A stretch of 53,157 nucleotides of DNA from a virus (Duplodnaviria > Caudoviricetes). The notes under the pieces are model-generated. The model had not been told where the DNA came from and made no database searches. It saw only the letters and a program-made list of their open reading frames with translations. The stretch is taken from positions 1 through 53,157 of IMG/VR virus record IMGVR_UViG_3300024433_000009, one strand, 5' to 3'. Each line of letters starts with the position of its first letter. Positions within the stretch are counted from its first letter, which is position 1. The position numbers were made by a program, and so were the translations under genes. Shown here one piece after another: positions 1 through 53,157 of the stretch.

Positions 1-143
1 AGGCTATTGATTTTTTTTCTCTTAGGTGAGAACTGCGAAAGCGGGTTCAGTTTAAATAAGTCTTTTTGTCTATTTTGAGATATGCCAGAAATCCGGGGAT
101 TATACAGCATTATTAGTCTTAAGGATCGACTTTCTGCACCATT
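1..143. repeat. Terminal overlap, copy 1 (circular assembly)
   Basis: 1-143 matches 53014-53157 except for one extra A in the T-run of the right copy. Confidence 0.95.
51..63 (+). promoter_or_regulatory. Putative late promoter motif TTTAAATAAGTCT
   Basis: AAGTCT starts 24 nt before ATG 82; the same spacing recurs before seven other late-region genes. Confidence 0.7.
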
Positions 144-8763: not shown

Positions 8764-9117
8764 ATGAGCGAAAACACTCCGAATTTAGATTTAGCAAAAC
8801 CCGATAGAGGTGAAATAAATTGGGATAGTTCTCTAAATAGTAATTTTGACATATTAGATGCGTCATATGGTAATTTAGTTGCTTCTTCCTTATTTAATTT
8901 TTTTAAAGGTGCATCTAATTTCGCAGGTCCGAGTGGCAAAACAGTTACGCATAATCTCAATCTCGCGGATTACATACCTACAATCATTTCTACTTCTGAT
9001 GGCGGTGGTGCAATAGGCGAAATCTGGGTGACCGACATAGCGGCAAATTCATTCGTCATTCGAAACAGCGGTTCAGGAGTAACCGCATTCACATGGATCA
9101 TACTCGTTAAGACATAA
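8764..9117 (+). CDS. Small fibre-anchor/adaptor protein with shared C-terminal domain (copy 1)
   Basis: N-terminal TPNLDLAKP...W...LNSNFDILD anchor motif; C-terminal ~65 aa is homologous to the products of 41028 and 45883. Confidence 0.65.
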   Translation: MSENTPNLDLAKPDRGEINWDSSLNSNFDILDASYGNLVASSLFNFFKGASNFAGPSGKTVTHNLNLADYIPTIISTSDGGGAIGEIWVTDIAANSFVIRNSGSGVTAFTWIILVKT

Positions 9118-9174
9118 ATAAGGGGCGGTGGAATATGAAAGTGAGACTATTCTATACAGAGGGGGCAACCTAAA

Positions 9175-11451: not shown

Positions 11452-11862
11452 TTGAAAAACGAAGAACGAACTAGAAAATACGGCAAAGAACAATATGAAA
11501 AATGGCAACAACAAATACAAATATGGAATAATAACAATCCAAAACAAATAAAACAATATCAACATGAAACATCCAGAAAAGGTGGAAAATATTATGAGGC
11601 ACACGAGCGATATGCTTCATCAGGGGTACAGCATCTCCGAAATTTGCTTAGAAGCAGTCACCGCCAGCATTATCGCCCATACAAACAAATAATAGCCCCA
11701 AAAAGCCAAATCCACCACGAATGGATACCAAGCACTGCAGATTACAGAGGGGCCGCCTTAGTCGAAGCGGACCAGCATATGCACGGATTCGTAGACGTTA
11801 TCCAAATTTTAGAAGGAAAAATAACACTATTGACGGAAGAAGAGGTTAGGAGTGCTTCTTAA
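11452..11862 (+). CDS. Putative HNH-like protein
   Basis: QIHHEW...LVEADQHMHG His pattern after a basic helical N-terminus; TTG start. Confidence 0.4.
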   Translation: MKNEERTRKYGKEQYEKWQQQIQIWNNNNPKQIKQYQHETSRKGGKYYEAHERYASSGVQHLRNLLRSSHRQHYRPYKQIIAPKSQIHHEWIPSTADYRGAALVEADQHMHGFVDVIQILEGKITLLTEEEVRSAS

Positions 11863-11863
11863 C

Positions 11864-12193
11864 ATGACAACTAAGCGTGCGTGGAAACTTTTAGAACAGC
11901 GCGTATGCGCAAAGTTTGGAGGGCGCAGAACGCCACTATCCGGCAGCAACAGTCAGCATGGCACCGCAGCGGATTGCATTGAAACGGATTATCCATGGCT
12001 CTATACTGAGATAAAGCTCCGAGCTTGCTTTCTGCATCATACCATATTCAAGCTTGTAGCGAAAGCAGCACAGAAAGAAGGCAAAACGCCTATTCTGGTT
12101 ACGCATGTGAAGAATGAAGCAAGCGAACTGGTCACGCTGAAAATTGAGGATTTCTTACAAATGGTGCGTTCGCGGAGGGAACAAGAAGAATGA
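11864..12193 (+). CDS. PD-(D/E)XK nuclease, Holliday-junction-resolvase-like
   Basis: WKLLEQRV...RTPLSG...ADC...YTEIKLR motif order. Confidence 0.75.
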   Translation: MTTKRAWKLLEQRVCAKFGGRRTPLSGSNSQHGTAADCIETDYPWLYTEIKLRACFLHHTIFKLVAKAAQKEGKTPILVTHVKNEASELVTLKIEDFLQMVRSRREQEE

Positions 12194-12534
12194 AAAACTT
12201 AGAAGAGAAATTGGATAAGGATTTTGAAAAGCTCCGGATAAAACCGCGGATATTTCATTTTGTCGGCGATAACCTTGTCTTTCCGTATGCAGGAATAACA
12301 ATAGTGAGCACCGCGAAATACTCAGATTACAAAAGAGTTCTGAAATACGTCAATCGTGCTATCGATCAAACCAGCTTTTCTGAATATCACAATACTGGAT
12401 TTCTAAAATTACGCCTAAATGATTCTACTTGGGGCGCTGCAATTTGCGATAAGCGTGATGTATTCAACCGCAGATTAGGACGGGTCATCGCAAAAGGAAG
12501 GTTGCTAAAACGACTAAGGGAAGAGGTGAAATAG
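12190..12534 (+). CDS. Conserved viral hypothetical protein
   Basis: GAAICDKRDVFNRRLGRVIAKGR resembles a widespread small phage family. Confidence 0.55.
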   Translation: MKNLEEKLDKDFEKLRIKPRIFHFVGDNLVFPYAGITIVSTAKYSDYKRVLKYVNRAIDQTSFSEYHNTGFLKLRLNDSTWGAAICDKRDVFNRRLGRVIAKGRLLKRLREEVK

Positions 12535-17296: not shown

Positions 17297-18151
17297 ATGA
17301 TAGAAATAAGTAAAATAAGGTATTCGGAACTGAATCCGATAATGGCGATGCATCCAAATCCGCACATTCTTTTAGGACATGAGATATTCTGGCAGGAGAA
17401 AAGAGACGGCAGTAATATCGGCGCGTATCTGAACGAAGAAGATAATATCAACTTACGTAGCAGAAACATGGACATAGCGAGCGAAGACTTTCATATGATA
17501 TTCTTAGACACAGACGAAGCGGAGAACGTTAGAGAACTACTGATTTCAATGCGTGACGAATGGCATGATGAATGTGTTATCTTTGGCGAACTACTAACAA
17601 AAGGCAAATCACCAACCAGAACGGAATTACATGAGAAGAACGAATTTATCATTTTTGATGTCTGGTCCACTAAAATCAGCGGATTGATACCATACACTTT
17701 GGTATATCAGCACTGCTATCATTTTGGATTGCCTATTGTAGATTTATATGGAACATCACGGCATACAACACTTGAATCTTTATTAGCATTCCGGGATAAA
17801 ATTCTTAAAATAGCAAAAGAAACCGGTAGAGAAGGCACAGTCGGGAAGACCTTTGAAAAGAACACTAAATACAAATATTTCAAAGAAAAGTTAGATCTGC
17901 CTAAGCTCGAGAAGAAGCCGCGACATATTGAGGACGGAAAACCCCTATTGCCTCCCCTCCCCAAATCGGAAATATTGGGTGCATTGGACAAAGCTCTGGT
18001 GGATTTAGGTATGAGCGATTTTAAAGAAGTAAAAAAGGCGATGCCTCTATTTGCAGAATATGTCAGTGTGGAATGTAGAAAGCACAATTGCAGTAAACCG
18101 GAAGGTAACTTGTTTCAATATTATCGCGCAAAATTGGAGGATATGGTATGA
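17297..18151 (+). CDS. ATP-dependent RNA ligase-like nucleotidyltransferase
   Basis: Motif I EKRDGSN, III IFGEL, IIIa FIIFDV, IV EGTV, V YFKEK. Confidence 0.85.
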   Translation: MIEISKIRYSELNPIMAMHPNPHILLGHEIFWQEKRDGSNIGAYLNEEDNINLRSRNMDIASEDFHMIFLDTDEAENVRELLISMRDEWHDECVIFGELLTKGKSPTRTELHEKNEFIIFDVWSTKISGLIPYTLVYQHCYHFGLPIVDLYGTSRHTTLESLLAFRDKILKIAKETGREGTVGKTFEKNTKYKYFKEKLDLPKLEKKPRHIEDGKPLLPPLPKSEILGALDKALVDLGMSDFKEVKKAMPLFAEYVSVECRKHNCSKPEGNLFQYYRAKLEDMV

Positions 18152-18552
18152 GCGAGAAATGGGAGCGGTGGTCAAAAGAAGAACTCGCAATTCTCAAGGA
18201 GCACTATCCTATCTCGTCACGCGAAGTGGTTTTGGAATTGCTCCTTGGAAGAACATGGCGAGCCATCTGCAATACCGCGCAGAAACATGAAATACGCCGC
18301 CCGCGTTACGGCACCGTAAGAAGCACCGATTATCTCAAAAGTTTACATGACAAGCTCAGCACTGCGAGGCGCAATCGCACCGGTGGCTATGCGCCGTTTG
18401 CGGGCAATCACCATTCCGCAGATGCGAAATTGCGTATCTCAGTGAGCAATCTACACACGCGTGGGCATAGCATTGCGGAGATAGTAAGACGAAAAGGGAT
18501 TGCGGATGGGGACGTGAAGGGGATAATAAAAGAAAGGAGTAAGAAGAGATGA
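18148..18552 (+). CDS. DNA-binding protein (Myb/SANT-like repeat plus NUMOD3-like motif)
   Basis: WSKEELAIL...GRTWRAI and PFAGNHHSADAKLRIS. Confidence 0.6.
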   Translation: MSEKWERWSKEELAILKEHYPISSREVVLELLLGRTWRAICNTAQKHEIRRPRYGTVRSTDYLKSLHDKLSTARRNRTGGYAPFAGNHHSADAKLRISVSNLHTRGHSIAEIVRRKGIADGDVKGIIKERSKKR

Positions 18553-24650: not shown

Positions 24651-24723
24651 GGGGGTGTAGCTCAGCCAGAAGAGCGGCAGTCTCCAGAACCGCAGGTCGT
24701 GAGTGCAAGTCTCACCTCCCCCA
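24651..24723 (+). tRNA. trnW: tRNA-Trp (CCA), intronless, with stem mismatches
   Basis: GGGGGTG-TA-GCTC/GAGC D arm, GCAGT-CTCCAGA-ACCGC anticodon arm, GTGAG-TGCAAGT-CTCAC T arm, CTCCCCC-A; TTTTTATA box upstream at 24613. Confidence 0.8.
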
Positions 24724-34688: not shown

Positions 34689-35041
34689 CCAAAGAATATC
34701 TATTCGGAATGCTGAAGAGATACGCAAGCGAGATAAATGAGGCATTTGAAGAATATCACGCATCTATAGATCGTAGTGGTGCAATATTGCAGCTCAGAAT
34801 TTCTGAATCACAAAAACGAAAATGAAAACGAAAGTAGCATTTCGGAAGGGAACTGTTGAAATGAAAACGAAATATAGTTGGCATGTTAAGTGGCGGCAGT
34901 ATAATCCAATCAGTTGGCTATTGTGCTGGCTGTTCGAGCATTATTCGTGGGCGCCCGGAGTGTGGGCGTATGATCTGCATGATTTCTTTTGCCCTGTAGT
35001 GCAAGAAGCGAAAGAGGAATGGGATTCGAAAAAGGAAAACA

Positions 35042-38051: not shown

Positions 38052-39374
38052 ATGCCATACGATACGATAACTGATTTGCCCGAATCCATACAAAAGGCAT
38101 TGCCTAAGCATGCCCAAGAAATATTCTTATCCGCTTTTAATGCGAGCTGGGCAGGCACGTGCAAAGATCGTCCTGATAGAGAAGCATGTGCAAATATGAT
38201 CGCATGGGCTGCCGTAAAACGAGATTATAAAAAGGAAGACGACAAATGGATAGCAAAAGCAGCGGAGGAAGAGCCATTGATAATTGAAGGTGATCTCCCC
38301 GTGGGTCTCATAAATAAGAATGGCTGGGGAATTCCCGATTCTGACGTTGAAAACGTAACAAATTCATTGAAAAATGCGGTCGTTCGTATATGTAATAGAG
38401 GTAAGGATGAACATACATGTGATGACGCGGGCGACCCTTATTCGGAAATCGGCAAGATATTGAATGCAAAAAAAAATGATGACAATATTAGAGTAAAAGT
38501 GGCTATAATGGATCGTCGAGCAGCACAGAAAATTAGAGATGGAGTTTGGGGTGATAAATGGAGTCCATACGGTCATGTAGAGAGCCTTCAAAATGGTTGG
38601 ACACATGGTTTGAATATTGAATCTCTTACTTTGGTTCAGAAGCCTGCATGGGAAGATGCGACATTCAATATCTCGGCAAGTGCGGAAGGCGTAACTCTCG
38701 AACTGCCTTTAATAAGTCTTTTCGCTAATGATGCAAATAAAGGGGAGGATTCAAAAAAGGAAAAAGGAAATATGGGAGAAGAAGATAAAAAGACCTTCAC
38801 ATCGGATGACGTTGATAAAACGGTGAAAGCGGCAGTGGATAAAGCCATCAAGGAGACGCAGGACAAGGCAAAAGAGGATACTGATAAAGCAGTAAAGGCG
38901 GCTCTGGAAAGCAAAGAAATGATAACGAAGACGGATGCGGACAAGATGGTGAAGGCGGCATTGGAAGAGAAGGCGAACAAAGAAGGCGACAAGAAAGAGA
39001 AAGAGAAAGAAACATACACAAAGGACGAGCTTGATACGAAGATAAAAGCATCAGTAGAACAAGCAATAACGCAGACAAAGGACGACATAGAACGCGAACA
39101 TCTGGCAGCTTCAATAACTGACGTGCTTGTGAATGCAGGTGTTATCGAGGAAATTGACCGTGAGAAACAATCGGAAAACATGAAAGCGGGTTCAAGTGAA
39201 GTACTACGTCAAATGCTTGAGAACGTCACGGCGATAGATACGAAACTCAAAGAAACGGTAAAAGCTGCGGCAGAACACGGGAAGAATATACAGTTTCCAC
39301 TAACGACAAATGGCGGTAGTGGCGCTTACGATTGGGACCCGGTGAAGGGAGTGTTTACGGAGGTGAAGCAGTAG
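38052..39374 (+). CDS. ChaB-domain prohead protease/scaffold fusion
   Basis: N-terminal ChaB motif (DLPESIQKALPKHAQEIFLSAFN...AWAAVK), protease-like core (NKNGW...H...WS...SLTLVQKPA), coiled-coil C-terminus. Confidence 0.8.
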   Translation: MPYDTITDLPESIQKALPKHAQEIFLSAFNASWAGTCKDRPDREACANMIAWAAVKRDYKKEDDKWIAKAAEEEPLIIEGDLPVGLINKNGWGIPDSDVENVTNSLKNAVVRICNRGKDEHTCDDAGDPYSEIGKILNAKKNDDNIRVKVAIMDRRAAQKIRDGVWGDKWSPYGHVESLQNGWTHGLNIESLTLVQKPAWEDATFNISASAEGVTLELPLISLFANDANKGEDSKKEKGNMGEEDKKTFTSDDVDKTVKAAVDKAIKETQDKAKEDTDKAVKAALESKEMITKTDADKMVKAALEEKANKEGDKKEKEKETYTKDELDTKIKASVEQAITQTKDDIEREHLAASITDVLVNAGVIEEIDREKQSENMKAGSSEVLRQMLENVTAIDTKLKETVKAAAEHGKNIQFPLTTNGGSGAYDWDPVKGVFTEVKQ

Positions 39375-40825: not shown

Positions 40826-41023
40826 ATGAAATTAAAATGCACGATTGGAACTCAAAATCTCAGTGATGGTAGAATATACAAAGAAGGCGATGAATATGAA
40901 CTTGACGATGAGGCAACAGCACGAATGCTAATTGGATTCGGGTACGCAATTGAAATTAAGCTCCCTGAAGTGGTTGAACCTGTCGTGGAAACAACAAAAC
41001 GTGAGACGATAAGGAGAAGATAA
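40826..41023 (+). CDS. Small head-associated protein
   Basis: GAGGTGA RBS; YKEGDEYEL...ARMLIGFGYA pattern common after capsid genes. Confidence 0.6.
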   Translation: MKLKCTIGTQNLSDGRIYKEGDEYELDDEATARMLIGFGYAIEIKLPEVVEPVVETTKRETIRRR

Positions 41024-41027
41024 AGAT

Positions 41028-41426
41028 ATGCCAAACGGAGTGACGACAAACTATTCGTTCAAGAAACAGCAGTTAGGGCATCCTACAAGGGATACAGACT
41101 TGGGTGACAATCTCGACTTGATTGATACGACAATCAAAACACGTGCAGATGCGATAACCAGTCTCGAAGATGCAAGCGCCAATCATACTATTGCTATCAA
41201 TACGATGCATACCGATGGTTCAAGCAACTTTGCAGGCCCTGGAGGAGTAACAATAACGCATAATCTAAATCTTAGCGATTATGACGTCTCCATAAAACCA
41301 TCTGCAGACGGCGGCGGCGCAATTGGCGAATGGTGGGTAACGGATATGGCAGTAAACAGTTTCGTGGTGCGGAATAGTGGTTCGGGCGTAACTGCATTCA
41401 CGTGGATAATCCATAATAGGACATAA
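41028..41426 (+). CDS. Fibre-anchor/adaptor protein with shared C-terminal domain (copy 2)
   Basis: TTNYSFKK...GDNLDLID anchor motif, a coiled coil, then the shared domain. Confidence 0.7.
   Translation: MPNGVTTNYSFKKQQLGHPTRDTDLGDNLDLIDTTIKTRADAITSLEDASANHTIAINTMHTDGSSNFAGPGGVTITHNLNLSDYDVSIKPSADGGGAIGEWWVTDMAVNSFVVRNSGSGVTAFTWIIHNRT
41259..41424 (+). repeat. 166-bp direct repeat, left copy
   Basis: Identical to 45997-46162. Confidence 0.95.
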
Positions 41427-41435
41427 AAAAGAAAA

Positions 41436-41750
41436 ATGACAGCGATAACCAGATCGGGCTCCAAAATAATGGTTGGAGCGATGGAACATGAAGGCAAAAG
41501 TATAGCGGAGCAGACCTTCAACATAAAAGGTCATGAAGGTGAACGAATCAGAGTCTATATTGGTAATGACGACAAATATACGATTGAAAGCAGACCAACA
41601 CAGAAACTACTGATCTGCGAACTCGACATCCCTAAAAAGGAATATGTGCATACGAAAACGACAGAGAAAGATGAGAATGGAGAATACATCATAGAAACGA
41701 AAGAGAAGGATTTGAGGCTGGAAAAGATAGAAATGAAAGAATATTTCTAA
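41436..41750 (+). CDS. Small protein upstream of the DGR target (possible adaptor/chaperone)
   Basis: ELDIPKKEY motif; position. Confidence 0.6.
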   Translation: MTAITRSGSKIMVGAMEHEGKSIAEQTFNIKGHEGERIRVYIGNDDKYTIESRPTQKLLICELDIPKKEYVHTKTTEKDENGEYIIETKEKDLRLEKIEMKEYF

Positions 41751-41781
41751 CTAAAACTAAAAGAGGTGTAATAAAAACAAA

Positions 41782-43134
41782 ATGACAGAAGATTTGAGTT
41801 TAAGCGGATTGAGAAATAGATTCAATCAATTGAACGATTTGAATGAGAACTTCGTGGAATTCTCGCGTAAAGCGACAAGCGGATTCGCTGATGCCTCCGG
41901 CAATCCATATTATGACGTAGGATTCAGAAATGGCGTGTTGATAGGTGGCTGCTGGCTTGCGAAATATCCCATGAGTCATCTTGATGCCACGCCAAAAGCG
42001 CAGGGCACATCGCCCATACCTGTCTCGCAGCCACACGTACCCGCATGGACAACTGTGAACTGGCAGCAGGCGCTTGAAGCTTGCAGACTGATGAACAGAA
42101 GCGATGAGCAAGCATTGGCAAAGGCTTACGTTTCTGGTGGCGGTATCGACGCCCTCGGAGCGGATATGAATGGCTATCATTATGTCTTGATTGATACCGA
42201 TGCGCATTTTCTTGAACTTGCTGTGGGCAATCATATTGAGCTTTCACATCCGCTCAGTGCAGCCGAAGCGGCTGCAATGAATACAAACAACTACGACAAT
42301 GCGATCCACACTAATACGACGACCGCGCCAACGGTGCGTTTAGGCAGCTCAAATCAATGGTTAGAGGGGGATACCATTATCTATGAACGCAAAGTGGCTA
42401 AATTCGACCAAGTGAACAAGAAAATATTCCTTACTGTTGCACTACCCACAAATGCGCTTGGTGTTGCGGACATAACGCCAAAATCAGGCGACAGCGTAAG
42501 CGTCAGGAAATATGACCTTGCAGGACTCGAAGAGTGGGCTGCCATCAAGTTAGAATGTGCAATGCAGGCAAAAGCTGCGTCACCGTTTGGCGCAGATGGA
42601 TATCCAAAAGGAAACAACTATTATGGCAGAGATTCTGCTGATGTAGACGAATGGAAATATTACGGCGATAACGACCCGACTTACACTGCCGCTGGACATC
42701 CAATTTATAAAGTTCTGTGTGGGTCCGGACCCGACTCGTGGTTCCATAACAACAACCGCAAGACAGGTGTATGGTGCTACAATGGAAATATATGGGACTG
42801 GATAAACGCGAAGGTATATGATGGAAAGATACAGGCAGGATATCCTGGAGAGGGGCATCAATTTCCTGATGCGAATAATTATGTAGCAACAATAGAAGCA
42901 GCATCAGCACTATGTGGGACTAAAGACCTGGCATTGCCAATAACGGTCGGCGCTACATGCGCACAATTTGGTGGCGACTACGGATATCTCAGTAAAACAT
43001 CCTATCCAGGCGATCGGGCTGTCCTCGTCGGCGGCGGCTGCCACGATACCGGTGGTGCGGGGGTCTTCTATACGGGTATCGACTGTACGCCTGACGGTAC
43101 GGACGTGGACGTCGGTTTCCGTGCGGCCTTGTAA
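41782..43134 (+). CDS. DGR target protein, C-type-lectin (FGE/Mtd-like) fold, probable receptor-binding protein
   Basis: WLAKY, VNWQQALEAC, EEWAA, NGNIWDW and C-terminal GG...GFR motifs; carries the VR. Confidence 0.9.
   Translation: MTEDLSLSGLRNRFNQLNDLNENFVEFSRKATSGFADASGNPYYDVGFRNGVLIGGCWLAKYPMSHLDATPKAQGTSPIPVSQPHVPAWTTVNWQQALEACRLMNRSDEQALAKAYVSGGGIDALGADMNGYHYVLIDTDAHFLELAVGNHIELSHPLSAAEAAAMNTNNYDNAIHTNTTTAPTVRLGSSNQWLEGDTIIYERKVAKFDQVNKKIFLTVALPTNALGVADITPKSGDSVSVRKYDLAGLEEWAAIKLECAMQAKAASPFGADGYPKGNNYYGRDSADVDEWKYYGDNDPTYTAAGHPIYKVLCGSGPDSWFHNNNRKTGVWCYNGNIWDWINAKVYDGKIQAGYPGEGHQFPDANNYVATIEAASALCGTKDLALPITVGATCAQFGGDYGYLSKTSYPGDRAVLVGGGCHDTGGAGVFYTGIDCTPDGTDVDVGFRAAL
43016..43130 (+). 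repeat. DGR variable repeat (VR)
   Basis: 115 nt, colinear with TR; 21 mismatches, all opposite TR adenines. Confidence 0.97.
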
Positions 43135-43240
43135 CCGTCAAATCGAAAGGACGAAAACGAGCGCATGAAAAAAAAAATATAGTCATGGAGGGAAAAAACA
43201 AAAAAGAACTACATGATAAGGTTTGAACAAGAATAAGTCG

Positions 43241-43355
43241 GGGCTGTCCTCGTCGGCGGCAACTACAACAATACCGGTAATGCGGGAGTCTTCTATACGA
43301 ATATCAACAATACGCCTGACAATACGAACGTAAACATCAGTTTCCGTGCAGCCTT
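43241..43355 (+). ncRNA. DGR template repeat (TR)
   Basis: Non-coding, AAC/AAT-rich copy of VR lying between the target and RT genes. Confidence 0.97.
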
Positions 43356-43501
43356 TCTCAACACTTGCTTCTCATATATACGTTTGGGTTACGGAAGCAA
43401 GTGCATCCTGTTCAAATCTTGGTCAATAGTACCGAATATAAAAAAGATACGCTGAATTAGTAGCGCGCGATGTGAACATTCAGCAAGATAACCCAACCAA
43501 A

Positions 43502-44527
43502 ATGAAAACTTATAAATACCTGTATGAACAGATATGCACAAAAAAGAACATCTGTAAAGCCTATCGGAAGGCGCAACTGGGCAAGCGAAACAAATTCTAT
43601 GTGCGGAAGTTTGAGTCAAACATCCTCGATAATATCGAGCAACTGCATCAAGAGCTCATAGATGAAACTTGGATGCCCTTGCCATATAAACAATTCATTG
43701 CTTACGAACCAAAGGAGCGATTAATCCGGGCACCCCAGTTTAGGGATAGAGTCGTGCATCATGCTTTAGTGCAAGTTCTGAAACCTATCTATGAACCAAT
43801 ATTCATTTACGATAGTTATGCGAGCCTAAAAGATAAAGGCACTCTGGCTGCTGTGAAGAGGCTTACGCAAATCATTAGAAGAGATTGTGATAATACTTTC
43901 ATTTTTCATGGTGACATCCGTAAGTTCTTTGATAACATCAATCACGAAATCCTAATCCGTATTTTAAGAGAGAAAATAGCAGACGAACGAGTAATAAATC
44001 TCATTCGTAAAATCCTAACCAATCAAGGCATCTCTCTTGGCGTAACCTTAGGCAACTACACGAGTCAGTGGTTTGCAAATATCTATTTGAACGAACTAGA
44101 TTATTACGCCAAACACGAGTTAAAAGTAAAGCATTATATCCGGTTCATGGATGATTTCTTGCTACTCTCAGATTCCAAGAGGCAATTACATGATTGGAAG
44201 CACAAAGTCAAAGACTTCATAAACGAAGAGCTCAAGCTCGAACTGCATCCGGTAAAACAGCAAATATTCCCAACTAATACGGGCATAGATTTCCTGGGAT
44301 ATACTATTTGGAAGGATCACAAAAAACTAAGAAGAAGAAATGTTGAGCGATTCACAAGCAGGCTAAAAAAATACGATAAAGCACTCGCGATAACGCCCTT
44401 CACGGAGGCATCTCTGATGAGTTGGAAAGGATATTCTATACACGCAGACGCTTTTGGATTGACAAAGCAATTGCATGATTTGCATCCGGCAATGCAAGCA
44501 TTTGCCTTGGAGAAATACACCGATTGA
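43502..44527 (+). CDS. DGR reverse transcriptase
   Basis: KERLIRAPQFRDRVVHHAL, GDIRKFF, LGNYTSQWFANIYL (DGR-type SQ motif), RFMDD and IDFLGY. Confidence 0.96.
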   Translation: MKTYKYLYEQICTKKNICKAYRKAQLGKRNKFYVRKFESNILDNIEQLHQELIDETWMPLPYKQFIAYEPKERLIRAPQFRDRVVHHALVQVLKPIYEPIFIYDSYASLKDKGTLAAVKRLTQIIRRDCDNTFIFHGDIRKFFDNINHEILIRILREKIADERVINLIRKILTNQGISLGVTLGNYTSQWFANIYLNELDYYAKHELKVKHYIRFMDDFLLLSDSKRQLHDWKHKVKDFINEELKLELHPVKQQIFPTNTGIDFLGYTIWKDHKKLRRRNVERFTSRLKKYDKALAITPFTEASLMSWKGYSIHADAFGLTKQLHDLHPAMQAFALEKYTD

Positions 44528-44530
44528 AAT

Positions 44531-44827
44531 ATGACAGAAGATTATCACCATTTCAGTGACTTCGCCGATATACGACCACAGTTTGAAGGCGAGAAGAAGA
44601 AGATTACTGAAATACTGAATAAGGAAATACTCATTCTTAACTTTCGCGTAGGTAATAGCAAGTACAAAGACAAGAAATATCTTACGTTGCATTTTGAGTT
44701 GGACAGCGAAAAATACATCGTATTCTCGGGGTCAGATGTTCTGATGGAGCAGGCTCAAGAGTATGCAGAGCAAATGCCTTACTATACGGCTATTGTGCAA
44801 CGGGGCAATTATTACACAATGACATAG
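44531..44827 (+). CDS. Small RT-linked protein, candidate non-Avd DGR accessory factor
   Basis: Starts 3 nt after the RT stop; beta-rich FEGEKKKI...ILNKEI...FSGS.VL...YYT pattern, not a four-helix bundle. Confidence 0.65.
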   Translation: MTEDYHHFSDFADIRPQFEGEKKKITEILNKEILILNFRVGNSKYKDKKYLTLHFELDSEKYIVFSGSDVLMEQAQEYAEQMPYYTAIVQRGNYYTMT

Positions 44828-45131
44828 GTTTATTTATATAGTAAGAAAACCAAATTAATACCAAATGATGAATACAGAAGAGAAAACATACGCAATCCCA
44901 ACCTTGGAAGAACAAGAGGAGGTTGAACCATTATTTAAAAGATTTCCTACACACACCAAACCACTTTTTAGAAAAGGAGGATGGTGGCACGTCGGAACAT
45001 ACGCCAGCTCCTTGAAACTCTTGAACGATATATAATCTTTCTTTAAGTCCTTTAAACATATCAACAAATATGATATATAGTGATGTCGGCGGTAGCGGGA
45101 TAATGACATCGGGAGACGTGATGGGACATTA

Positions 45132-45878
45132 ATGTTTAAAATAAACGAATCGGTTGAATTTAAATTGTATCTTCTTAATACTGACGGCCAACCGGCCACA
45201 GGTGCCACAGTTACAAGTACGGTTTACGATGAATCAGATAGTTCTTTTAATAATCCTTCGGTTACTGAAATTGGTAGCACAGGACTATATACTGCTGCAT
45301 TTACACCCGATGCTGCTGGTGAATGGACAATTGTTTTTGCATGTAGTAGTCCAGTAGCAAGGCGGGCGTATACAATACAAGTCGGTAAAGGAGTGGAAGC
45401 AGCTATCGAAACTAAAGTAGATAATATTGCAACAAAAACAGAACAAGATACATCATTCAACTCAGTATTAGCAGATATCGATTCAAAAGTCACAGGCAAA
45501 CAGCAAATAGCCATAACTACCGAAGACTTGAACCAAACAGCAGCTACTTACGATTTGTTCACAGGAACTACACAAGATGTACTCTTGGAGAGTTTACTTA
45601 TCCGGATGCCCGATATAGCTGCTGGTGGAGCTCTAACATCAATCTCGATACAGACGGATGATACCACACCGCAAGTGCTTATCTCTGCTGCTGATGGTGC
45701 AGTCGCAAACCTTACCGCAGAAGCGCAACTCGCATGGCAGAACTTTAATGCACCTATTCTCATAAAGGTGGGTACGAAAGTTCAACTTACTATTGCAGGT
45801 GGAGCACATGGTGTCGCTTATGTTTGCGATATAGTGGTAAAGACAAGAGCAGTTACAAGCGGAGGATACTTGGGATAA
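45132..45878 (+). CDS. Virion structural protein with Ig-like N-terminus
   Basis: VTEIGSTGLYTAAFTPDAAGEW pattern, coiled-coil linker, beta-rich C-terminus. Confidence 0.6.
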   Translation: MFKINESVEFKLYLLNTDGQPATGATVTSTVYDESDSSFNNPSVTEIGSTGLYTAAFTPDAAGEWTIVFACSSPVARRAYTIQVGKGVEAAIETKVDNIATKTEQDTSFNSVLADIDSKVTGKQQIAITTEDLNQTAATYDLFTGTTQDVLLESLLIRMPDIAAGGALTSISIQTDDTTPQVLISAADGAVANLTAEAQLAWQNFNAPILIKVGTKVQLTIAGGAHGVAYVCDIVVKTRAVTSGGYLG

Positions 45879-45882
45879 TAAA

Positions 45883-46164
45883 ATGGCAGTAGCAAAGAAC
45901 GGGGTATTTGAAATAAAAGCGGAAAATATACCAGTGGATGAAATACATGCCGAAGGCTCAAATAACTTCGCAGGTAGCGGCGGGGTAACGATATCCCATA
46001 ATCTAAATCTTAGCGATTATGACGTCTCCATAAAACCATCTGCAGACGGCGGCGGCGCAATTGGCGAATGGTGGGTAACGGATATGGCAGTAAACAGTTT
46101 CGTGGTGCGGAATAGTGGTTCGGGCGTAACTGCATTCACGTGGATAATCCATAATAGGACATGA
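45883..46164 (+). CDS. Adaptor protein with shared C-terminal domain (copy 3)
   Basis: The last 55 codons are identical to those of 41028. Confidence 0.7.
   Translation: MAVAKNGVFEIKAENIPVDEIHAEGSNNFAGSGGVTISHNLNLSDYDVSIKPSADGGGAIGEWWVTDMAVNSFVVRNSGSGVTAFTWIIHNRT
45997..46162 (+). repeat. 166-bp direct repeat, right copy
   Basis: Identical to 41259-41424. Confidence 0.95.
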
Positions 46165-46282
46165 AGATCGTAAACGTTCTTTTTAATAGATTACAAAAAT
46201 ACTTAAAAAATTAAAACAATATACTTAAAGAAGTTATCATAAATAATGAAGAAGGTTATTAAGATATAGGTGGGAAAAACAA

Positions 46283-47497: not shown

Positions 47498-47893
47498 ATG
47501 GCATACACGACACCTGGAGATATAAGGATACTAATAGACACCTCGGTTGATAATATTGTCATAGAGAGCATCATTGACATAGTGGATACGGACATAGACG
47601 ACCTACTTGCGGAAAAGGGATTGTCGGTCAGCGAGCCCACGTCTGCGAAGATTAAAAAATCAAGCAAATATACTGCATGCGCGCGCATATTAACCCGCGA
47701 TTGGGCTGGAGGTACAACACCGGACACACACAAGATAGGCGAGTTCAGCCAAAAATCCGGGATACAAGAGCAAATAGCGGCATTCGAAGCGAAGGGTGAG
47801 AAGGCAATTCAGGACTACATACACGAGCAGAAAAAGGGCGATTATCCTGAAATATTTGAGATTATCGAAAATAAGACGAATACGAATCTGTAA
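47498..47893 (+). CDS. Head-tail connector/adaptor
   Basis: MAYTTPGDIR start, helical body, HKIGEFS motif. Confidence 0.75.
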   Translation: MAYTTPGDIRILIDTSVDNIVIESIIDIVDTDIDDLLAEKGLSVSEPTSAKIKKSSKYTACARILTRDWAGGTTPDTHKIGEFSQKSGIQEQIAAFEAKGEKAIQDYIHEQKKGDYPEIFEIIENKTNTNL

Positions 47894-47895
47894 AA

Positions 47896-48141
47896 ATGGA
47901 ACTCGACAAGGACACATTGGAAAAGATAATCGAAACCAACATCACATGCAAGCATATACTACGGCGGTTGGAGCAGGGCGAGAAGCGGTTCAATAGTCAT
48001 GACAAGCGAATACAAAAACTCGAACAGCAGCAACAGTTGTTAGTGGGAAAATTCGCGATGTTCATAATGGCTATCGGCGGCATAGTGACAATAATATTCA
48101 ATGCGCTTATATGGGGATGGCTCAAAATAACGGGTAAGTAA
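47896..48141 (+). CDS. XhlA/holin-like membrane protein
   Basis: Coiled coil HDKRIQKLE followed by one transmembrane helix. Confidence 0.55.
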   Translation: MELDKDTLEKIIETNITCKHILRRLEQGEKRFNSHDKRIQKLEQQQQLLVGKFAMFIMAIGGIVTIIFNALIWGWLKITGK

Positions 48142-51945: not shown

Positions 51946-52248
51946 ATGAAAGACAAAATTGAAATTAATGGAAGGGAGTTTCAGCTAAAGAAGCCTGGAG
52001 AATATCATATAATCAAAGCTTACGGGACCGAATCCAAGGACATGGCAGACATTCTACGCGATCTGATCATGATTTGCATTGAAGAGCCAAAACTGACTGC
52101 GGAGGAGGTCGAGGGCATGGATGGCTTTTTACATCTCAGCTTGCAGGTTTTAGAATTTGTGGAAAAAAATTTTCGGGAGCTCAGCGAGGATGCTTATTTG
52201 AAGAAGCGAACCGAGCAGCTATTAAAAAAGAAGTCGAAAGCGAAATAG
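51946..52248 (+). CDS. Tail assembly chaperone (G)
   Basis: Follows the tube gene; CIEEPKLT motif; slippery sites near the 3' end. Confidence 0.75.
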   Translation: MKDKIEINGREFQLKKPGEYHIIKAYGTESKDMADILRDLIMICIEEPKLTAEEVEGMDGFLHLSLQVLEFVEKNFRELSEDAYLKKRTEQLLKKKSKAK

Positions 52249-52427
52249 GGCTATATGTGTTATCGAAGGAACTGCATATTGACCTCGACGAAATAAAAGA
52301 CAATTGGTCATTAAAGAAGATAATCTCATGGAGCTATGCCTTGCGATTGATCCATAAAGAGATTGAGAATGCAACGCATGGCACGACAAGAACAAGCGAA
52401 AAGAAGAATAGGTATGTGTTCAAATAA
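52224..52427 (+). CDS. -1 frameshift extension of the tail assembly chaperone (GT)
   Basis: Open -1 frame with no ATG, entered via A AAA AAG at 52224 (alternatives at 52164 and 52167). Confidence 0.6.
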   Translation, partial: KKEVESEIGLYVLSKELHIDLDEIKDNWSLKKIISWSYALRLIHKEIENATHGTTRTSEKKNRYVFK

Positions 52428-52430
52428 TTT

Positions 52431-52479
52431 ATGGTAGTTTTATGGTAAGCCTTTATATAGGCATGGTAATTATATGGTA
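52431..52479 (+). promoter_or_regulatory. TATA box flanked by four ATGGTA direct repeats (putative operator)
   Basis: ATGGTA at 52431, 52442, 52463 and 52474 around TTTATATA at 52452. Confidence 0.65.
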
Positions 52480-52493
52480 ATTAGTGATGAAAA

Positions 52494-52766
52494 ATGCCAG
52501 GCGAAGGGTACAAAAGTTTGGGAGTAAGTGAAGGCATATATGACCTATTAAAAGCGGAAAAATATGAAGGGGAAAGCTTTTCGAGAGTTATAGGGAGAAT
52601 ATATGTCGTGTTCAAAGAGAGGCAGCAACACTTTGGAAAAGGGGGCGGGGCGGATTTGATGACAAAAGAGGATTTTGACAAGGCAATAAAGGAGTTGGAA
52701 AACGACATAAGTGTGGCGGTCAGAGATGCGGTAAAGGAAGCCATTACAGAGATGAAAAGATATTAA
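52494..52766 (+). CDS. Archaeal VapB/RHH antitoxin-like DNA-binding protein
   Basis: KSLGVSEGIYDLLKAEKYEGESFSRVIGRI. Confidence 0.75.
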   Translation: MPGEGYKSLGVSEGIYDLLKAEKYEGESFSRVIGRIYVVFKERQQHFGKGGGADLMTKEDFDKAIKELENDISVAVRDAVKEAITEMKRY

Positions 52767-52834
52767 AGAAGGAAAACGGAGAAGAATATCTGAAAGAAAG
52801 CGAATAATAAAAAATTTAGGAGGTGAATAAGAAC

Positions 52835-53023
52835 ATGGAACCACAAAAAGTGCAGTTAGACAGGACAGAAGAAGGAAATCAAACGGCAAATCTCATTGCC
52901 TTCACATTGATCTTTTTTGGCATCTTGTTGTGCATCACCCTGATTGGGTTGCCACTTGGGATACCTATGATTTTGTTTGGGTGGTACATAATGAGAAACG
53001 TAAAGAAGAGGAGAGGCTATTGA
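52835..53023 (+). CDS. Small membrane protein
   Basis: GGAGGTGA RBS; GILLCITLIGLPLGIPMILFG helical hairpin. Confidence 0.7.
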   Translation: MEPQKVQLDRTEEGNQTANLIAFTLIFFGILLCITLIGLPLGIPMILFGWYIMRNVKKRRGY

Positions 53024-53157
53024 TTTTTTTATCTCTTAGGTGAGAACTGCGAAAGCGGGTTCAGTTTAAATAAGTCTTTTTGTCTATTTTGAGATATGCC
53101 AGAAATCCGGGGATTATACAGCATTATTAGTCTTAAGGATCGACTTTCTGCACCATT
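53014..53157. repeat. Terminal overlap, copy 2
   Basis: Repeats 1-143, including the start of the tape measure gene. Confidence 0.95.

What the first reader, a model, noticed from the sequence alone, without database searches (positions are those of the whole stretch)
41782..44827. Complete diversity-generating retroelement in an archaeal virus
Seen: the order is target(VR)-TR-RT-small ORF. VR 43016-43130 and TR 43241-43355 align without gaps over 115 nt. All 21 differences fall at TR adenines (21 of 33), mostly in AAC/AAT codons at the lectin C-terminus. This is the established signature of mutagenic retrohoming (Bordetella BPP-1; archaeal precedent ANMV-1). Archaeal viral DGRs are rarely described, and this one has several non-canonical traits listed separately.
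Basis: partly seen in the sequence, partly recalled or inferred. Interest (0 to 1): 0.9.

Follow-up and report, generated by a model that had tools for sequence, protein, structure and literature searches.

The report
ANMV-1-type retroelement in a tailed virus
This is a genuine, intact diversity-generating retroelement that rewrites the tip of a viral binding protein, but it is the same cassette already published from the archaeal virus ANMV-1, here carried by a different virus and accompanied by a small, unnamed helper-like gene.

Summary
VR 43016-43130 and TR 43241-43355 align without gaps over 115 nt. All 21 differences lie at TR adenines (21 of 33 A; 0 of 82 non-A; P 7e-15). The RT groups with DGR RTs, not group II introns (tree split 100/100). 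The target's C-terminal half is homologous to TaqVP, a solved DGR lectin-fold protein.

It is not a new kind. The block 41293-44724 is 73.7% identical in DNA to the DGR of ANMV-1 (Paul et al. 2015): target 81%, RT 77%, small ORF 61% in protein. The two viruses' TerL and capsid are not detectably related, so the cassette is a shared module. An archaeal (ANME-1-type) host is probable, not proven.

What I add:
- The 98-aa ORF after the RT belongs to a large family (904 cluster representatives). Members sit beside a DGR RT in 38 of 40 loci and are fused to an RT in 4 of 4 long forms. The model is OB-like and unrelated to Avd.
- The A-to-G bias tracks Tyr at the Brt-184 position (65% vs 35% G), not FMDD.

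Current activity could not be tested, because only assembled contigs were available. The scan had noted this DGR only on this same window.

The parts
41028..41426 (+). 132-aa protein whose C-terminal fibre-type domain (41205-41427) is copy 1 of the direct repeat that brackets the cassette; similarity to ANMV-1 starts inside it at 41293
   Evidence: 223-nt repeat at 92% identity with a 166-nt identical core (41259-41424); 62% aa identity to the ANMV-1 'capsid tail fiber' ORF
41436..41750 (+). 104-aa conserved ORF directly upstream of the target; it travels with the cassette
   Evidence: 56% identity to ANMV-1, 69% to L008, 64-70% to L048/L018/L049; no Pfam, PHROG or NCBIfam family
41782..43134 (+). 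DGR target gene, an adtA homologue of 450 aa; the C-terminal half is an FGE-type C-type-lectin domain by homology
   Evidence: 81% identity, full length, to 'DGR target protein adtA [ANMV-1 virus]'; family profile against 5vf4 TaqVP, E 6.7e-25, profile positions 222-445; 5VF4 is TaqVP, CLec fold; phrog_5302 tail protein, C-terminus
43016..43130 (+). Variable repeat (VR), the last 38 codons of the target
43182..43190 (+). GTCATGGAG motif in the VR-TR spacer, invariant in the window, L002, ANMV-1 and L008; role unknown
43218..43229 (+). 5' arm of a long-range helix enclosing TR (pairs with 43409-43420)
   Evidence: 12 pairs; L008 keeps 3 through changes on both sides and breaks 3; only 4 sequences, so weak
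43241..43355 (+). Template repeat (TR), non-coding, 33 adenines, 10 AAY codons in the VR frame
   Evidence: no start codon opens this frame in the window
43362..43403 (+). Hairpin just 3' of TR (43362-43372 pairs with 43393-43403)
   Evidence: 11 pairs; L008 keeps 3 through changes on both sides; weak (4 sequences)
43409..43420 (+). 3' arm of the long-range helix enclosing TR
43502..44527 (+). DGR reverse transcriptase, 341 aa, with motifs LGNYTSQ and FMDD
44531..44827 (+). 98-aa OB-fold-like protein, candidate non-Avd accessory factor; starts one codon after the RT stop, in the same frame
45943..46165 (+). Copy 2 of the bracketing direct repeat (C-terminal domain of the 93-aa ORF 45883-46164)

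Best explanation
The region is an intact ANMV-1-type diversity-generating retroelement in a contractile-tailed virus of about 53 kb whose host is most likely an ANME-1/Methanophagales-type archaeon.

Mechanism, inferred by homology to the Bordetella BPP-1 system:
- A transcript spanning TR, probably folded by the helix that pairs its flanks, is copied by the RT.
- The RT misincorporates opposite template adenines.
- The cDNA replaces VR at the 3' end of the target gene. This rewrites up to 20 codons of the ligand-binding face of a lectin-fold protein encoded among capsid and fibre genes.

The RT's partner is not Avd. It is most likely the 98-aa OB-like protein encoded directly after it.

Shown here: the repeat anatomy, the RT class, homology of the target to a solved DGR variable protein, identity with the ANMV-1 cassette, lineage-wide hypervariability at exactly the TR-adenine codons, and obligate linkage of the small protein to DGR RTs.

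Inferred: present-day activity, the host, the role of the small protein, and that Tyr in LGNYTSQ causes the G-rich spectrum.
For: Repeats:
- All 21 differences are at TR adenines and 0 of 82 non-A positions differ. Cassette DNA differs by 20-26% between relatives. So VR was copied from TR recently.

RT:
- RVT_1 E 3.9e-26.
- Best solved relative is 8ub7, which matches BPP-1 Brt (E 2.5e-55).
- It carries the DGR signature [I/V/L]GxxxSQ (motif as defined in PMC7826257; seen).
- The tree separates 24 DGR RTs from 4 group II RTs with 100/100 support.

Target:
- 81% identical to ANMV-1 AdtA.
- The family profile hits TaqVP at E 6.7e-25 across the VR-bearing half.

Lineage-level diversification:
- In 43 full-length homologues, the 20 codons with a TR adenine at position 1 or 2 have 2.19 bits of entropy. 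The other 19 VR codons have 0.52 bits and the remaining 411 residues 0.49 bits (MWU P 1e-10).

Same cassette as ANMV-1:
- A single blastn block, window 41293-44724, matches KP703175.1 32928-36299 at 73.7% with the same gene order.

Small ORF:
- Conserved.
- Beside a DGR RT in 38 of 40 loci; the 2 exceptions lie at contig ends.
- Both gene orders occur: 16 RT-then-small and 13 small-then-RT among the 29 new loci with an RT.
- 4 of 4 long forms are RT fusions.

Host:
- Closest named capsid relative (85%) and another (58%) are labelled Ca. Methanospirareceae, order Methanophagales.
- TerL is closest to the methanogen viruses psiM2 and psiM100.
- Cassette-region DNA occurs in 4 of 68 genomes of the order of an archaeal MAG, against 1 of 24 (the seed only) in the order of a WOR-3 MAG.
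- The tRNA-Trp has G1-C72 and A73. That this is the archaeal identity set is recalled, not from a call.
Against: - No within-population VR variation could be examined. All four runs laid were assembled contigs, and the contig of the probable source run spans VR with no difference.
- No significant hairpin follows VR (z 0.23), and no clear IMH/IMH* pair was defined.
- No Avd homologue exists in the record.
- The full-length target model failed (pLDDT 40), so the lectin fold rests on sequence homology.
- Host labels conflict: capsid or cassette relatives also sit in MAGs labelled WOR-3, Nitrospiraceae and Bacteroides.
- No TATA-binding protein was found and no CRISPR spacer match was found.
- The 4/68 versus 1/24 contrast is not statistically significant.
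- Cassettes on three contigs of close relatives are decayed: an IS insertion in L018, and RT deletion in L063 and L064, which are probably one virus binned twice. So loss is common in this lineage.
Confidence: 0.78

Rival explanations
1. The element is structurally intact but currently silent: a recently used DGR that no longer diversifies in this population.
For: The only contig of the probable source run that spans VR shows no difference. Cassettes on three contigs of close relatives have lost TR/RT or RT. PMC8632793 (passage) cites Roux et al. for activity differing between phage-associated and cellular DGRs.
Against: Contigs drop minor variants, so they cannot show monomorphism. Target, RT and small ORF are all open and full length. 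Zero non-A mismatches in 115 nt argues for recent homing.
Confidence: 0.2
2. The virus infects a bacterium (for example a WOR-3-type organism), and the archaeal labels come from mis-binned viral contigs.
For: Capsid relatives at 64-65% and a cassette relative at 73-83% lie in a WOR-3 MAG. The small-ORF family is common in bacterial MAGs. TerL is only slightly closer to methanogen viruses (49%) than to Gordonia phages (45-46%). No TBP was found. The RT of the Methanosarcinales-labelled virus vir525 is the tree sister of one from a MAG labelled Bacteroides, so labels are shaky.
Against: The nearest named capsid relative (85%) and another are ANME-1-family MAGs. Four independent MAGs of one archaeal order carry cassette-region DNA, against only the seed MAG, on contigs of 1.3 and 3 kb, in the bacterial order. 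The tRNA-Trp has G1-C72/A73 (identity rule recalled). The cassette is shared at 74% DNA identity with ANMV-1, for which Paul et al. argued an archaeal host from a TBP gene and ANME-like genes (PMC4372165 passages).
Confidence: 0.15
3. The 98-aa ORF is an ordinary phage gene, for example a single-strand-binding protein, that merely rides next to DGR RTs and has no role in retrohoming.
For: Fold matches are to generic OB folds at Z 4-6.5, below the tool's stated noise level of about 7-8. The window's copy is acidic (pI 5.3), unlike Avd (9.55).
Against: Linkage holds across very different genomes: archaeal-virus type, phage contigs, and Ca. Enterousia, Bacteroides and proteobacterial MAGs. It also survives rearrangement of gene order, including the slot between VR and TR. 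Four of 4 long family members are RT fusions. No family member was seen away from an RT except at contig ends.
Confidence: 0.2
4. The A-to-G excess reflects selection on the displayed residues (Gly, Asp) rather than a property of the RT.
For: Codon 445 is Gly in all 43 homologues although TR encodes AGT, so some A-to-G changes are fixed by selection. VRs are single selected snapshots. The loci with Tyr at position 184 fall into few clades and include near-duplicates.
Against: The bias tracks one RT residue across different targets: 65% G in 20 loci with Tyr against 35% in 10 loci with Leu or Gln, with almost no overlap (minimum 0.44, maximum 0.48). Five loci with the same accessory and YCDD but Leu at 184 show no bias. 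Three synonymous third-position changes in the window are also A to G. Handa et al. report that bRT L184A shifts misincorporation towards cytosine (PMC7826257 passage).
Confidence: 0.3

Closest known systems
ANMV-1 virus DGR (adtA-TR-RT; GenBank KP703175.1; Paul et al. 2015, PMC4372165)
   Same: Same cassette: one collinear DNA block at 73.7% identity. Target 81%, RT 77%, small ORF 61%, upstream 104-aa ORF 56% identical. Same order, 114/115-nt repeats, short VR-TR spacer, no Avd homologue.
   Different: Different virus backbone: no TerL, capsid, portal or sheath similarity at E 1e-5, and a capsid HMM finds nothing in ANMV-1. The window has FMDD where ANMV-1 has YMDD. G share is 19 of 21 here against 9 of 17 there. 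No TBP gene here. The ORF annotated between target and RT in ANMV-1 is TR read in the VR frame, and it has no start codon here.
Bordetella phage BPP-1 DGR (mtd-avd-TR-brt)
   Same: Adenine-specific TR/VR pair, VR at the 3' end of a receptor-binding protein gene, RT of the same clade (35% identity, E 4e-52), [I/V/L]GxxxSQ motif.
   Different: BPP-1 has avd between VR and TR (422 nt spacing). Here the spacing is 110 nt, with no Avd homologue. Brt has L184 and a T-rich spectrum (4 G, 3 C, 11 T), against Y184 and 19 G, 1 C, 1 T here.
Avd (accessory variability determinant; PF05635 / TIGR02436)
   Same: Small protein encoded inside the cassette. In 13 of the 29 new loci with an RT the small ORF lies upstream of the RT, and in L009, L046 and L047 it sits between VR and TR, where BPP-1's record has bbp7.
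   Different: No homology (hhalign probability 0.09%). The model is a beta barrel plus one helix, whereas Avd is as I recall a helical bundle. Not consistently basic: 5.3 here, family means 7.5 and 8.1, Avd 9.55.
TaqVP, Thermus aquaticus DGR variable protein (PDB 5VF4)
   Same: Homologous over the C-terminal half including the VR (E 6.7e-25), with shared GNVWEW-type and C-terminal GxRxA motifs. Solved FGE-type CLec fold (PMC6328139 passages).
   Different: The N-terminal ~220 residues of the window's target have no solved relative and modelled poorly.
Caudoviricetes sp. vir525 DGR (BK063673.1; host given as Methanosarcinales)
   Same: Target-TR-RT-small ORF order; the small ORF is a family member (E 1e-29); Y184; G-rich spectrum, 10 of 15.
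   Different: RT only 39% identical and in the other RT subclade; YCDD; unrelated target.

Membership tests
Diversity-generating retroelement | Two nearby repeats whose differences fall at adenines of the non-coding copy (TR) | tested here: met
   21 of 21 differences at TR adenines, 0 of 82 at other bases, P 6.7e-15
Diversity-generating retroelement | RT of the DGR clade with the [I/V/L]GxxxSQ motif | tested here: met
   LGNYTSQ; Brt E 2.5e-55; DGR RTs against group II RTs split 100/100
Diversity-generating retroelement | VR at the 3' end of a target ORF with a C-type-lectin (or Ig) fold | tested here: met
   VR is the last 38 codons. The family profile hits TaqVP (5VF4, CLec fold) at E 6.7e-25 over positions 222-445. 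The structure prediction itself failed.
Diversity-generating retroelement | Avd accessory gene (present in 74% of DGRs in Wu et al., so not obligatory) | tested here: not met
   No PF05635 or TIGR02436 match at E<=1 in the whole record. The record has 143-nt terminal repeats, so it is probably complete. Small ORF against Avd: probability 0.09%.
Diversity-generating retroelement | IMH/IMH* at the repeat 3' ends and a GC-rich hairpin downstream of VR | tested here: inconclusive
   Homology ends at ...GCCTT in both copies. No significant fold downstream of VR (z 0.23). Only short conserved motifs in the spacer.
Diversity-generating retroelement | Observed diversification confined to TR-adenine positions | tested here: inconclusive
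   Across 43 homologues, variability is concentrated at TR-adenine codons (2.19 against 0.49 bits). Within-population variation for this genome was not testable because only contigs were served.
ANMV-1-type DGR cassette | Collinear homology of fibre domain, 104-aa ORF, adtA, TR, RT and 98-aa ORF | tested here: met
   One blastn block at 73.7% over 3.4 kb; every ORF matches in order
Group II intron RT / maturase | Score above the NCBIfam TIGR04416 cut-off; clusters with group II RTs | tested here: not met
   156.7 bits against a cut-off of 300; separated from 4 RTs that pass the cut-off by a 100/100 branch
Archaeal virus | Host link by archaeal transcription genes, spacer matches or provirus context | tested here: inconclusive
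   No TBP and no spacer-like match. Indirect support from capsid relatives in Methanophagales MAGs, TerL, 4 of 68 against 1 of 24 genomes and the tRNA-Trp acceptor stem. Conflicting bacterial labels.
Known non-Avd DGR accessory classes (HRDC, MSL, CH1) | HRDC domain; MutS-like, 112-283 aa; CH1, 160-169 aa with pI about 4.7 (Wu et al., PMC5758913 passages) | tested here: not met
   98 aa with no Pfam, NCBIfam or PHROG family. The size is outside the MSL and CH1 ranges. PAG1-4 of Wu et al. are only in supplements, which I could not read.

The most novel reading that the evidence does not exclude
The 98-aa OB-fold-like protein is an unrecognised fifth class of DGR accessory factor. It replaces Avd in a large lineage of DGRs spread over archaeal viruses, phages and bacteria (904 cluster representatives at 50% identity). 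It would work as a nucleic-acid-binding partner of the RT and is sometimes fused to it. Within this lineage, a Tyr at the Brt-184 position of the [I/L]GNYxSQ motif would tune adenine mutagenesis towards C misincorporation, giving a G-rich repertoire enriched in Gly and Asp. Many DGRs filed as having 'no accessory gene' would then have one.
Probability: 0.4. Interest if true: 0.7.

Novelty: new member of a known kind. Interest (0 to 1): 0.42.

Why it matters
As a DGR in a probable archaeal virus it adds a second, probably complete genome context to the single well-known case, ANMV-1. It also shows that the cassette moves as a module between viruses whose structural genes are not detectably related.

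The more useful outcome concerns mechanism. How DGRs without Avd work has been open since Wu et al. (2018) reported a quarter of DGRs without it. This locus points to a specific, widespread, RT-linked and sometimes RT-fused small protein that can be tested directly. It also points to one RT residue that may set the mutational spectrum, which matters for anyone using DGR RTs as targeted mutagenesis tools.

Tried and rejected
Read-level test of VR variation. The run search found 5 runs, all kept as Logan contigs, and I laid 4 of them. Contigs cannot show minor alleles. In runs X2 and X3, which hold relatives, contigs stop at or near the VR and depth drops there.

Complex prediction of RT with the small protein: no verdict (score 0.00, mark 0.32). 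It is neither for nor against binding.

Full-length target structure: mean pLDDT 40, so no fold search was run on it. I used a sequence profile against solved structures instead.

Pfam on the target's C-terminal 210 residues at E<=10: nothing.

Hairpin downstream of VR: not supported.

Rfam on 41000-46000 and 52000-53157: no match.

Attachment-site idea: several archaeal genomes weakly match window ~52770-52860. The stretch is purine-rich and no tRNA lies at the matched sites. Rejected as low-complexity chance matches.

Capsid protein in the orders of the two conflicting MAGs: 2 of 68 against 1 of 24, seeds included. Uninformative.

FMDD as the cause of the G bias: rejected. FMDD also occurs in the unrelated DGR RTs of L003 (not in the spectrum table) and L007 (G share 0.44). 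ANMV-1 (YMDD) and the YCDD loci with Tyr at 184 are also G-rich.

'Small ORF causes the G bias': rejected. Five loci with the small ORF but Leu at 184 are unbiased.

The ANMV-1 ORF 34834-35028, probably the 'Avd' arrow in Fig. 1b of Paul et al. (I saw only the legend), is TR read in the VR frame.

A first regular-expression pass at the RT motif missed most RTs. It was replaced by an alignment.

Literature:
- The search for '8UB7' found nothing.
- 'OB-fold' with DGR accessory found one unrelated paper.
- 'Avd-independent' found only Wu et al..
- I read passages, not whole texts, of PMC4372165, PMC5758913, PMC8632793, PMC7826257, PMC6328139, PMC8144416 and bioRxiv 2024.11.15.621889.
- Supplements were closed. 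Wu et al.'s Table S1/S3 (PAG1-4) and the data tables of Roux et al. may already list this ORF family or this contig.

Rows dropped or not independent:
- L012's RT stretch has 2 stops and was left out of alignment A5.
- L010 is the same contig as L002 and was counted once.
- L034/L035, L036/L037 and L043-L045 have identical RT scores and are not independent.
- For L028 I summed its two VR pairs.

Full report
OBSERVATION. The repeat pair is exactly as described. VR 43016-43130 and TR 43241-43355 align without gaps over 115 nt with 21 differences. Every difference is at a TR adenine: 21 of 33 adenines changed and 0 of 82 other positions, with a hypergeometric P of 6.7e-15. TR read in the VR frame holds 10 AAY codons. 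All 10 are changed in VR, and they account for 15 of the 21 substitutions. VR forms the last 38 codons of a 450-aa ORF (41782-43134). TR is intergenic, an RT ORF follows, and a 98-aa ORF starts one codon after the RT stop. The complete absence of non-adenine differences matters. The cassette differs by 20-26% in DNA between related viruses, so VR must have been rewritten from TR recently.

THE RT.
- It matches Pfam RVT_1 at E 3.9e-26.
- Its best solved relative is 8ub7 chain A at E 2.5e-55. Group II intron and retron RTs score about 1e-22. I matched 8ub7 to BPP-1 Brt by finding a stretch of its printed alignment inside the translated brt gene.
- The NCBIfam group II model scores 156.7 bits against a cut-off of 300.
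- I built a maximum-likelihood tree of 28 RTs: 18 from loci with the small ORF, 6 other DGR RTs including Brt, and 4 group II RTs that pass the NCBIfam cut-off.
- The tree puts all 24 DGR RTs on one side of a 100/100 branch. The window sits in a 99/97 clade with L002, ANMV-1, L008 and L054.
- The RT carries LGNYTSQ, the DGR signature [I/V/L]GxxxSQ as given in PMC7826257, and it has FMDD instead of YMDD.

THE TARGET.
- No Pfam or NCBIfam model matches it.
- The homologue search returned 52 proteins. One is named 'DGR target protein adtA [ANMV-1 virus]', 81% identical over the full length.
- A profile of 47 family members hits one solved structure strongly: 5vf4 at E 6.7e-25 over profile positions 222-445, which include the VR.
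- 5VF4 is TaqVP, the Thermus aquaticus DGR variable protein with an FGE-type C-type-lectin fold (PMC6328139 passages).
- My own structure prediction of the full protein failed (pLDDT 40), so the fold assignment rests on this homology and on the modelling of AdtA by Paul et al.
- Across 43 full-length homologues at 72-100% identity, the 20 codons with a TR adenine at position 1 or 2 have a mean entropy of 2.19 bits. The 19 other VR codons have 0.52 bits and the remaining 411 residues 0.49 bits.
- The scaffold VGG...AGVF...GFRAAL is fixed.
- This is lineage-level evidence that the mechanism operates. It is not evidence for this genome today.

IT IS THE ANMV-1 CASSETTE.
- In 50,697 phage records the region has one real DNA match: ANMV-1 (KP703175.1), as a single block of 3.4 kb at 73.7% identity (window 41293-44724).
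- The annotated ANMV-1 locus has the same order: fibre-domain gene, a ~100-aa ORF, adtA, RT, and an unnamed 297-nt ORF starting just after the RT.
- Protein identities are 81% (target), 77% (RT), 61% (small ORF) and 56% (upstream ORF).
- The ORF that GenBank annotates between adtA and the RT (34834-35028, pI 9.9) is TR read in the VR frame. In the window that frame has no start codon.
- Paul et al. (PMC4372165, passages read) described the ANMV-1 DGR, modelled AdtA on Mtd, argued for an archaeal host, and noted relatives in other seeps.
- The finding is therefore a new member of a published kind.

A SHARED MODULE.
- Outside the cassette the two viruses share only a few small genes.
- TerL, portal, capsid and sheath give no tblastn hit at E 1e-5. 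A capsid HMM built from 115 homologues finds nothing in ANMV-1 at E<=10.
- By contrast, two MAG contigs (G001:C1 and G002:C275) repeat the window's own layout from the gene before the capsid gene through to the target.
- In the window the cassette plus three downstream ORFs is bracketed by a 223-nt direct repeat at 92% identity with a 166-nt identical core. The repeat encodes the C-terminal fibre-type domain of two small proteins, and a third, diverged copy ends the gene at 8764-9117.
- Recombination at this shared domain is a plausible route for moving the module. That is inference.
- The cassette also decays. In L018 the TR and most of the RT are replaced by a resolvase gene plus a gene with a Cas12f1-like TNB domain, which looks like an IS607-type element.
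- In L063 and L064 the RT and all but 31 codons of the small ORF are gone, while VR and TR remain.

THE SMALL ORF.
- It has 24 relatives at 49-80% identity, all of 97-101 aa.
- A profile search of 1.84 billion representatives finds 904 at E<=1e-3 and 350 at E<=1e-10. Nearly all of the 150 listed are 90-110 aa.
- I examined 40 loci carrying a member: 8 in the first set (window, L002, L008, L009, L011, L012, ANMV-1, vir525), 31, and L054.
- A DGR-type RT lies alongside on the same strand in 38. In the other two (L031, L038) the contig ends where the RT would be.
- Of the 31 new loci, 18 also gave an adenine-specific repeat pair with my simple finder.
- Gene order varies: 16 loci have RT then small ORF, and 13 have small ORF then RT. 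In L009, L046 and L047 the small ORF sits between VR and TR, the slot that bbp7 occupies in BPP-1's record.
- Of the 10 longest proteins I scanned, the 4 above 300 aa are all RVT_1 followed by the small domain. The other 6 (133-233 aa) have no Pfam family.
- In the window and L002 the small ORF is in the RT's frame, one codon after its stop.
- The AlphaFold model (pLDDT 84.7) is a five-stranded barrel with one helix. Fold matches are almost all OB folds (SSB, PriB, RPA, Teb1), but at Z 4-6.5, below the tool's noise guide.
- The atlas gives only unnamed viral clusters, and a phage SSB family as a sub-threshold lead.
- It is unrelated to Avd (hhalign probability 0.09%). No Avd model matches anywhere in the record.
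- It is not consistently basic: pI 5.3 here and family means of 7.5 and 8.1, against 9.55 for Avd.
- The family is not archaeal-specific. Members at 35-44% identity lie in MAGs labelled Ca. Enterousia, Bacteroides, proteobacteria and Clostridia.
- Wu et al. list four accessory classes (Avd, HRDC, MSL, CH1) whose sizes or domains do not fit. They also list 29% of DGRs with no accessory.
- A 2021 review repeats the four classes. The main text of Roux et al. never mentions accessory genes.
- I therefore think the family is undescribed as a DGR component. I could not read the supplements where Wu et al. list four minor candidates.

THE G BIAS.
- Nineteen of the 21 substitutions are A to G.
- Across 30 loci with a scored TR/VR pair, I read the residue aligned to Brt L184.
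- 20 loci with Tyr ([I/L]GNYxSQ) have 249 of 382 substitutions to G (65%; lowest locus 0.44).
- 10 loci with Leu or Gln have 57 of 161 (35%; highest locus 0.48). Fisher P is 2.6e-10 on sites and Mann-Whitney P is 8.9e-6 on loci.
- Five loci with the small ORF and YCDD but Leu at 184 are unbiased. FMDD occurs on both sides of the divide. So neither the accessory nor FMDD explains the bias.
[quoted passage not shown] In the coding strand that is A to G.
- Caveats: the Tyr loci fall into few clades and include near-duplicates. VRs are selected snapshots. Codon 445 is always Gly although TR encodes Ser.

HOST AND GENOME.
- The record encodes a tape measure protein, baseplate J, tail sheath, TerL and an HK97-type capsid protein.
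- Its first 143 nt repeat at its end (99.3% identity, one indel in a T run). So it is probably a complete ~53.0 kb genome, despite the 'linear, 54%' label.
- For an archaeal host:
  - The nearest named capsid relatives are in Ca. Methanospirareceae, order Methanophagales (85% and 58%).
  - TerL is nearest to psiM2 and psiM100.
  - Cassette-region DNA is in 4 of 68 genomes of the order of an archaeal MAG, against only the seed genome of 24 in a WOR-3 order.
  - The tRNA-Trp has G1-C72 and A73 by canonical numbering (the identity rule is recalled).
  - The cassette is shared with ANMV-1.
- Against: bacterial MAG labels, no TBP and no spacer match.
- I put the archaeal host at about 0.8.

OTHER CASSETTE FEATURES. 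A consensus fold of four relatives recovers a 12-bp helix pairing the TR flanks (43218-43229 with 43409-43420) and an 11-bp hairpin after TR. L008 supplies three double changes in each. With four sequences this is weak. It fits the requirement for flanking RNA reported for BPP-1, which I saw only in the abstract of bioRxiv 2023.10.23.563531 in the listing. No hairpin after VR is supported.

VERDICT. This is a real, intact DGR of the published ANMV-1 type in a different, probably archaeal, tailed virus. The locus does expose two testable leads of wider interest: an RT-linked OB-like accessory family, and a candidate determinant of the mutational spectrum.

Noticed in passing
window 1-143 and 53014-53157: The record's first 143 nt recur at its end (99.3% identity, one indel in a T run). 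The genome is therefore probably complete and circularly permuted or terminally redundant (~53.0 kb), although it is labelled linear and 54% complete.
   Followed up: partly
window 41205-41427, 45943-46165, 8917-9118: A 223-nt direct repeat (92% identity, 166-nt identical core at 41259-41424 / 45997-46162) brackets the DGR cassette plus three ORFs. It encodes the same C-terminal fibre-type domain on two small proteins. A third copy at 67% identity ends the gene at 8764-9117.
   Followed up: partly
L018 2984-4771 (G001 contig C1): In a close relative (target 85% identical) the TR and most of the RT are replaced by two opposite-strand genes: a resolvase-domain protein and a protein with a Cas12f1-like TNB domain. 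This looks like an IS607-type insertion, so that DGR is dead.
   Followed up: yes
L063 and L064 (G041:C102, G060:C128): Another relative, binned in two MAGs, keeps VR and TR but has lost the RT and all but the last 31 codons of the small ORF.
   Followed up: partly
window 24651-24723: By canonical numbering (U8 at 24658, A14 at 24664) the tRNA-Trp has G1-C72 and discriminator A73, one base off ARAGORN's coordinates. As I recall this is the archaeal/eukaryal identity set. There is a U-U mismatch at 6-67 and no encoded CCA.
   Followed up: partly
window 44525-44533; L002 1629-1637: The RT stop codon and the small ORF's ATG are in the same frame, one codon apart. Read-through of that single stop would give an RT-small fusion like the natural fusions P0216, P0257 and P0321. 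ANMV-1 has the two genes in different frames.
   Followed up: no
window 43114-43116 (codon 445): TR encodes AGT (Ser) but all 43 target homologues have Gly at this position, so this TR adenine is always read out as G: a selected or obligatory change.
   Followed up: no
L016 (vir525) and L023: The RT of the Methanosarcinales-labelled virus vir525 is the 100/99-supported sister (short branches) of one on a contig of a MAG labelled Bacteroides sp. Host and bin labels in this DGR lineage are unreliable.
   Followed up: no
L034/L035, L036/L037, L044/L045: Pairs of viral contigs with identical RT HMM scores carry different VRs against the same-length TR (for example 23 against 20 adenine substitutions). 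This suggests active diversification in those relatives. L034 has 23 of 23 changes to G.
   Followed up: no
window 38052-39374: The 440-aa protein upstream of the capsid gene starts with a ChaB domain (E 3e-15). The ANMV-1 gene of the same length and position is annotated as prohead protease but shows no detectable similarity.
   Followed up: no
window 11452-11862, 12190-12534, 18148-18552, 47875-48141: These small ORFs of unknown function are the only genes besides the cassette and the fibre domain that the window clearly shares with ANMV-1 (phmmer E 1e-36 to 1e-8; two further matches are marginal at E 1e-5 or weaker). The pattern is a mosaic that fits a common gene pool.
   Followed up: no
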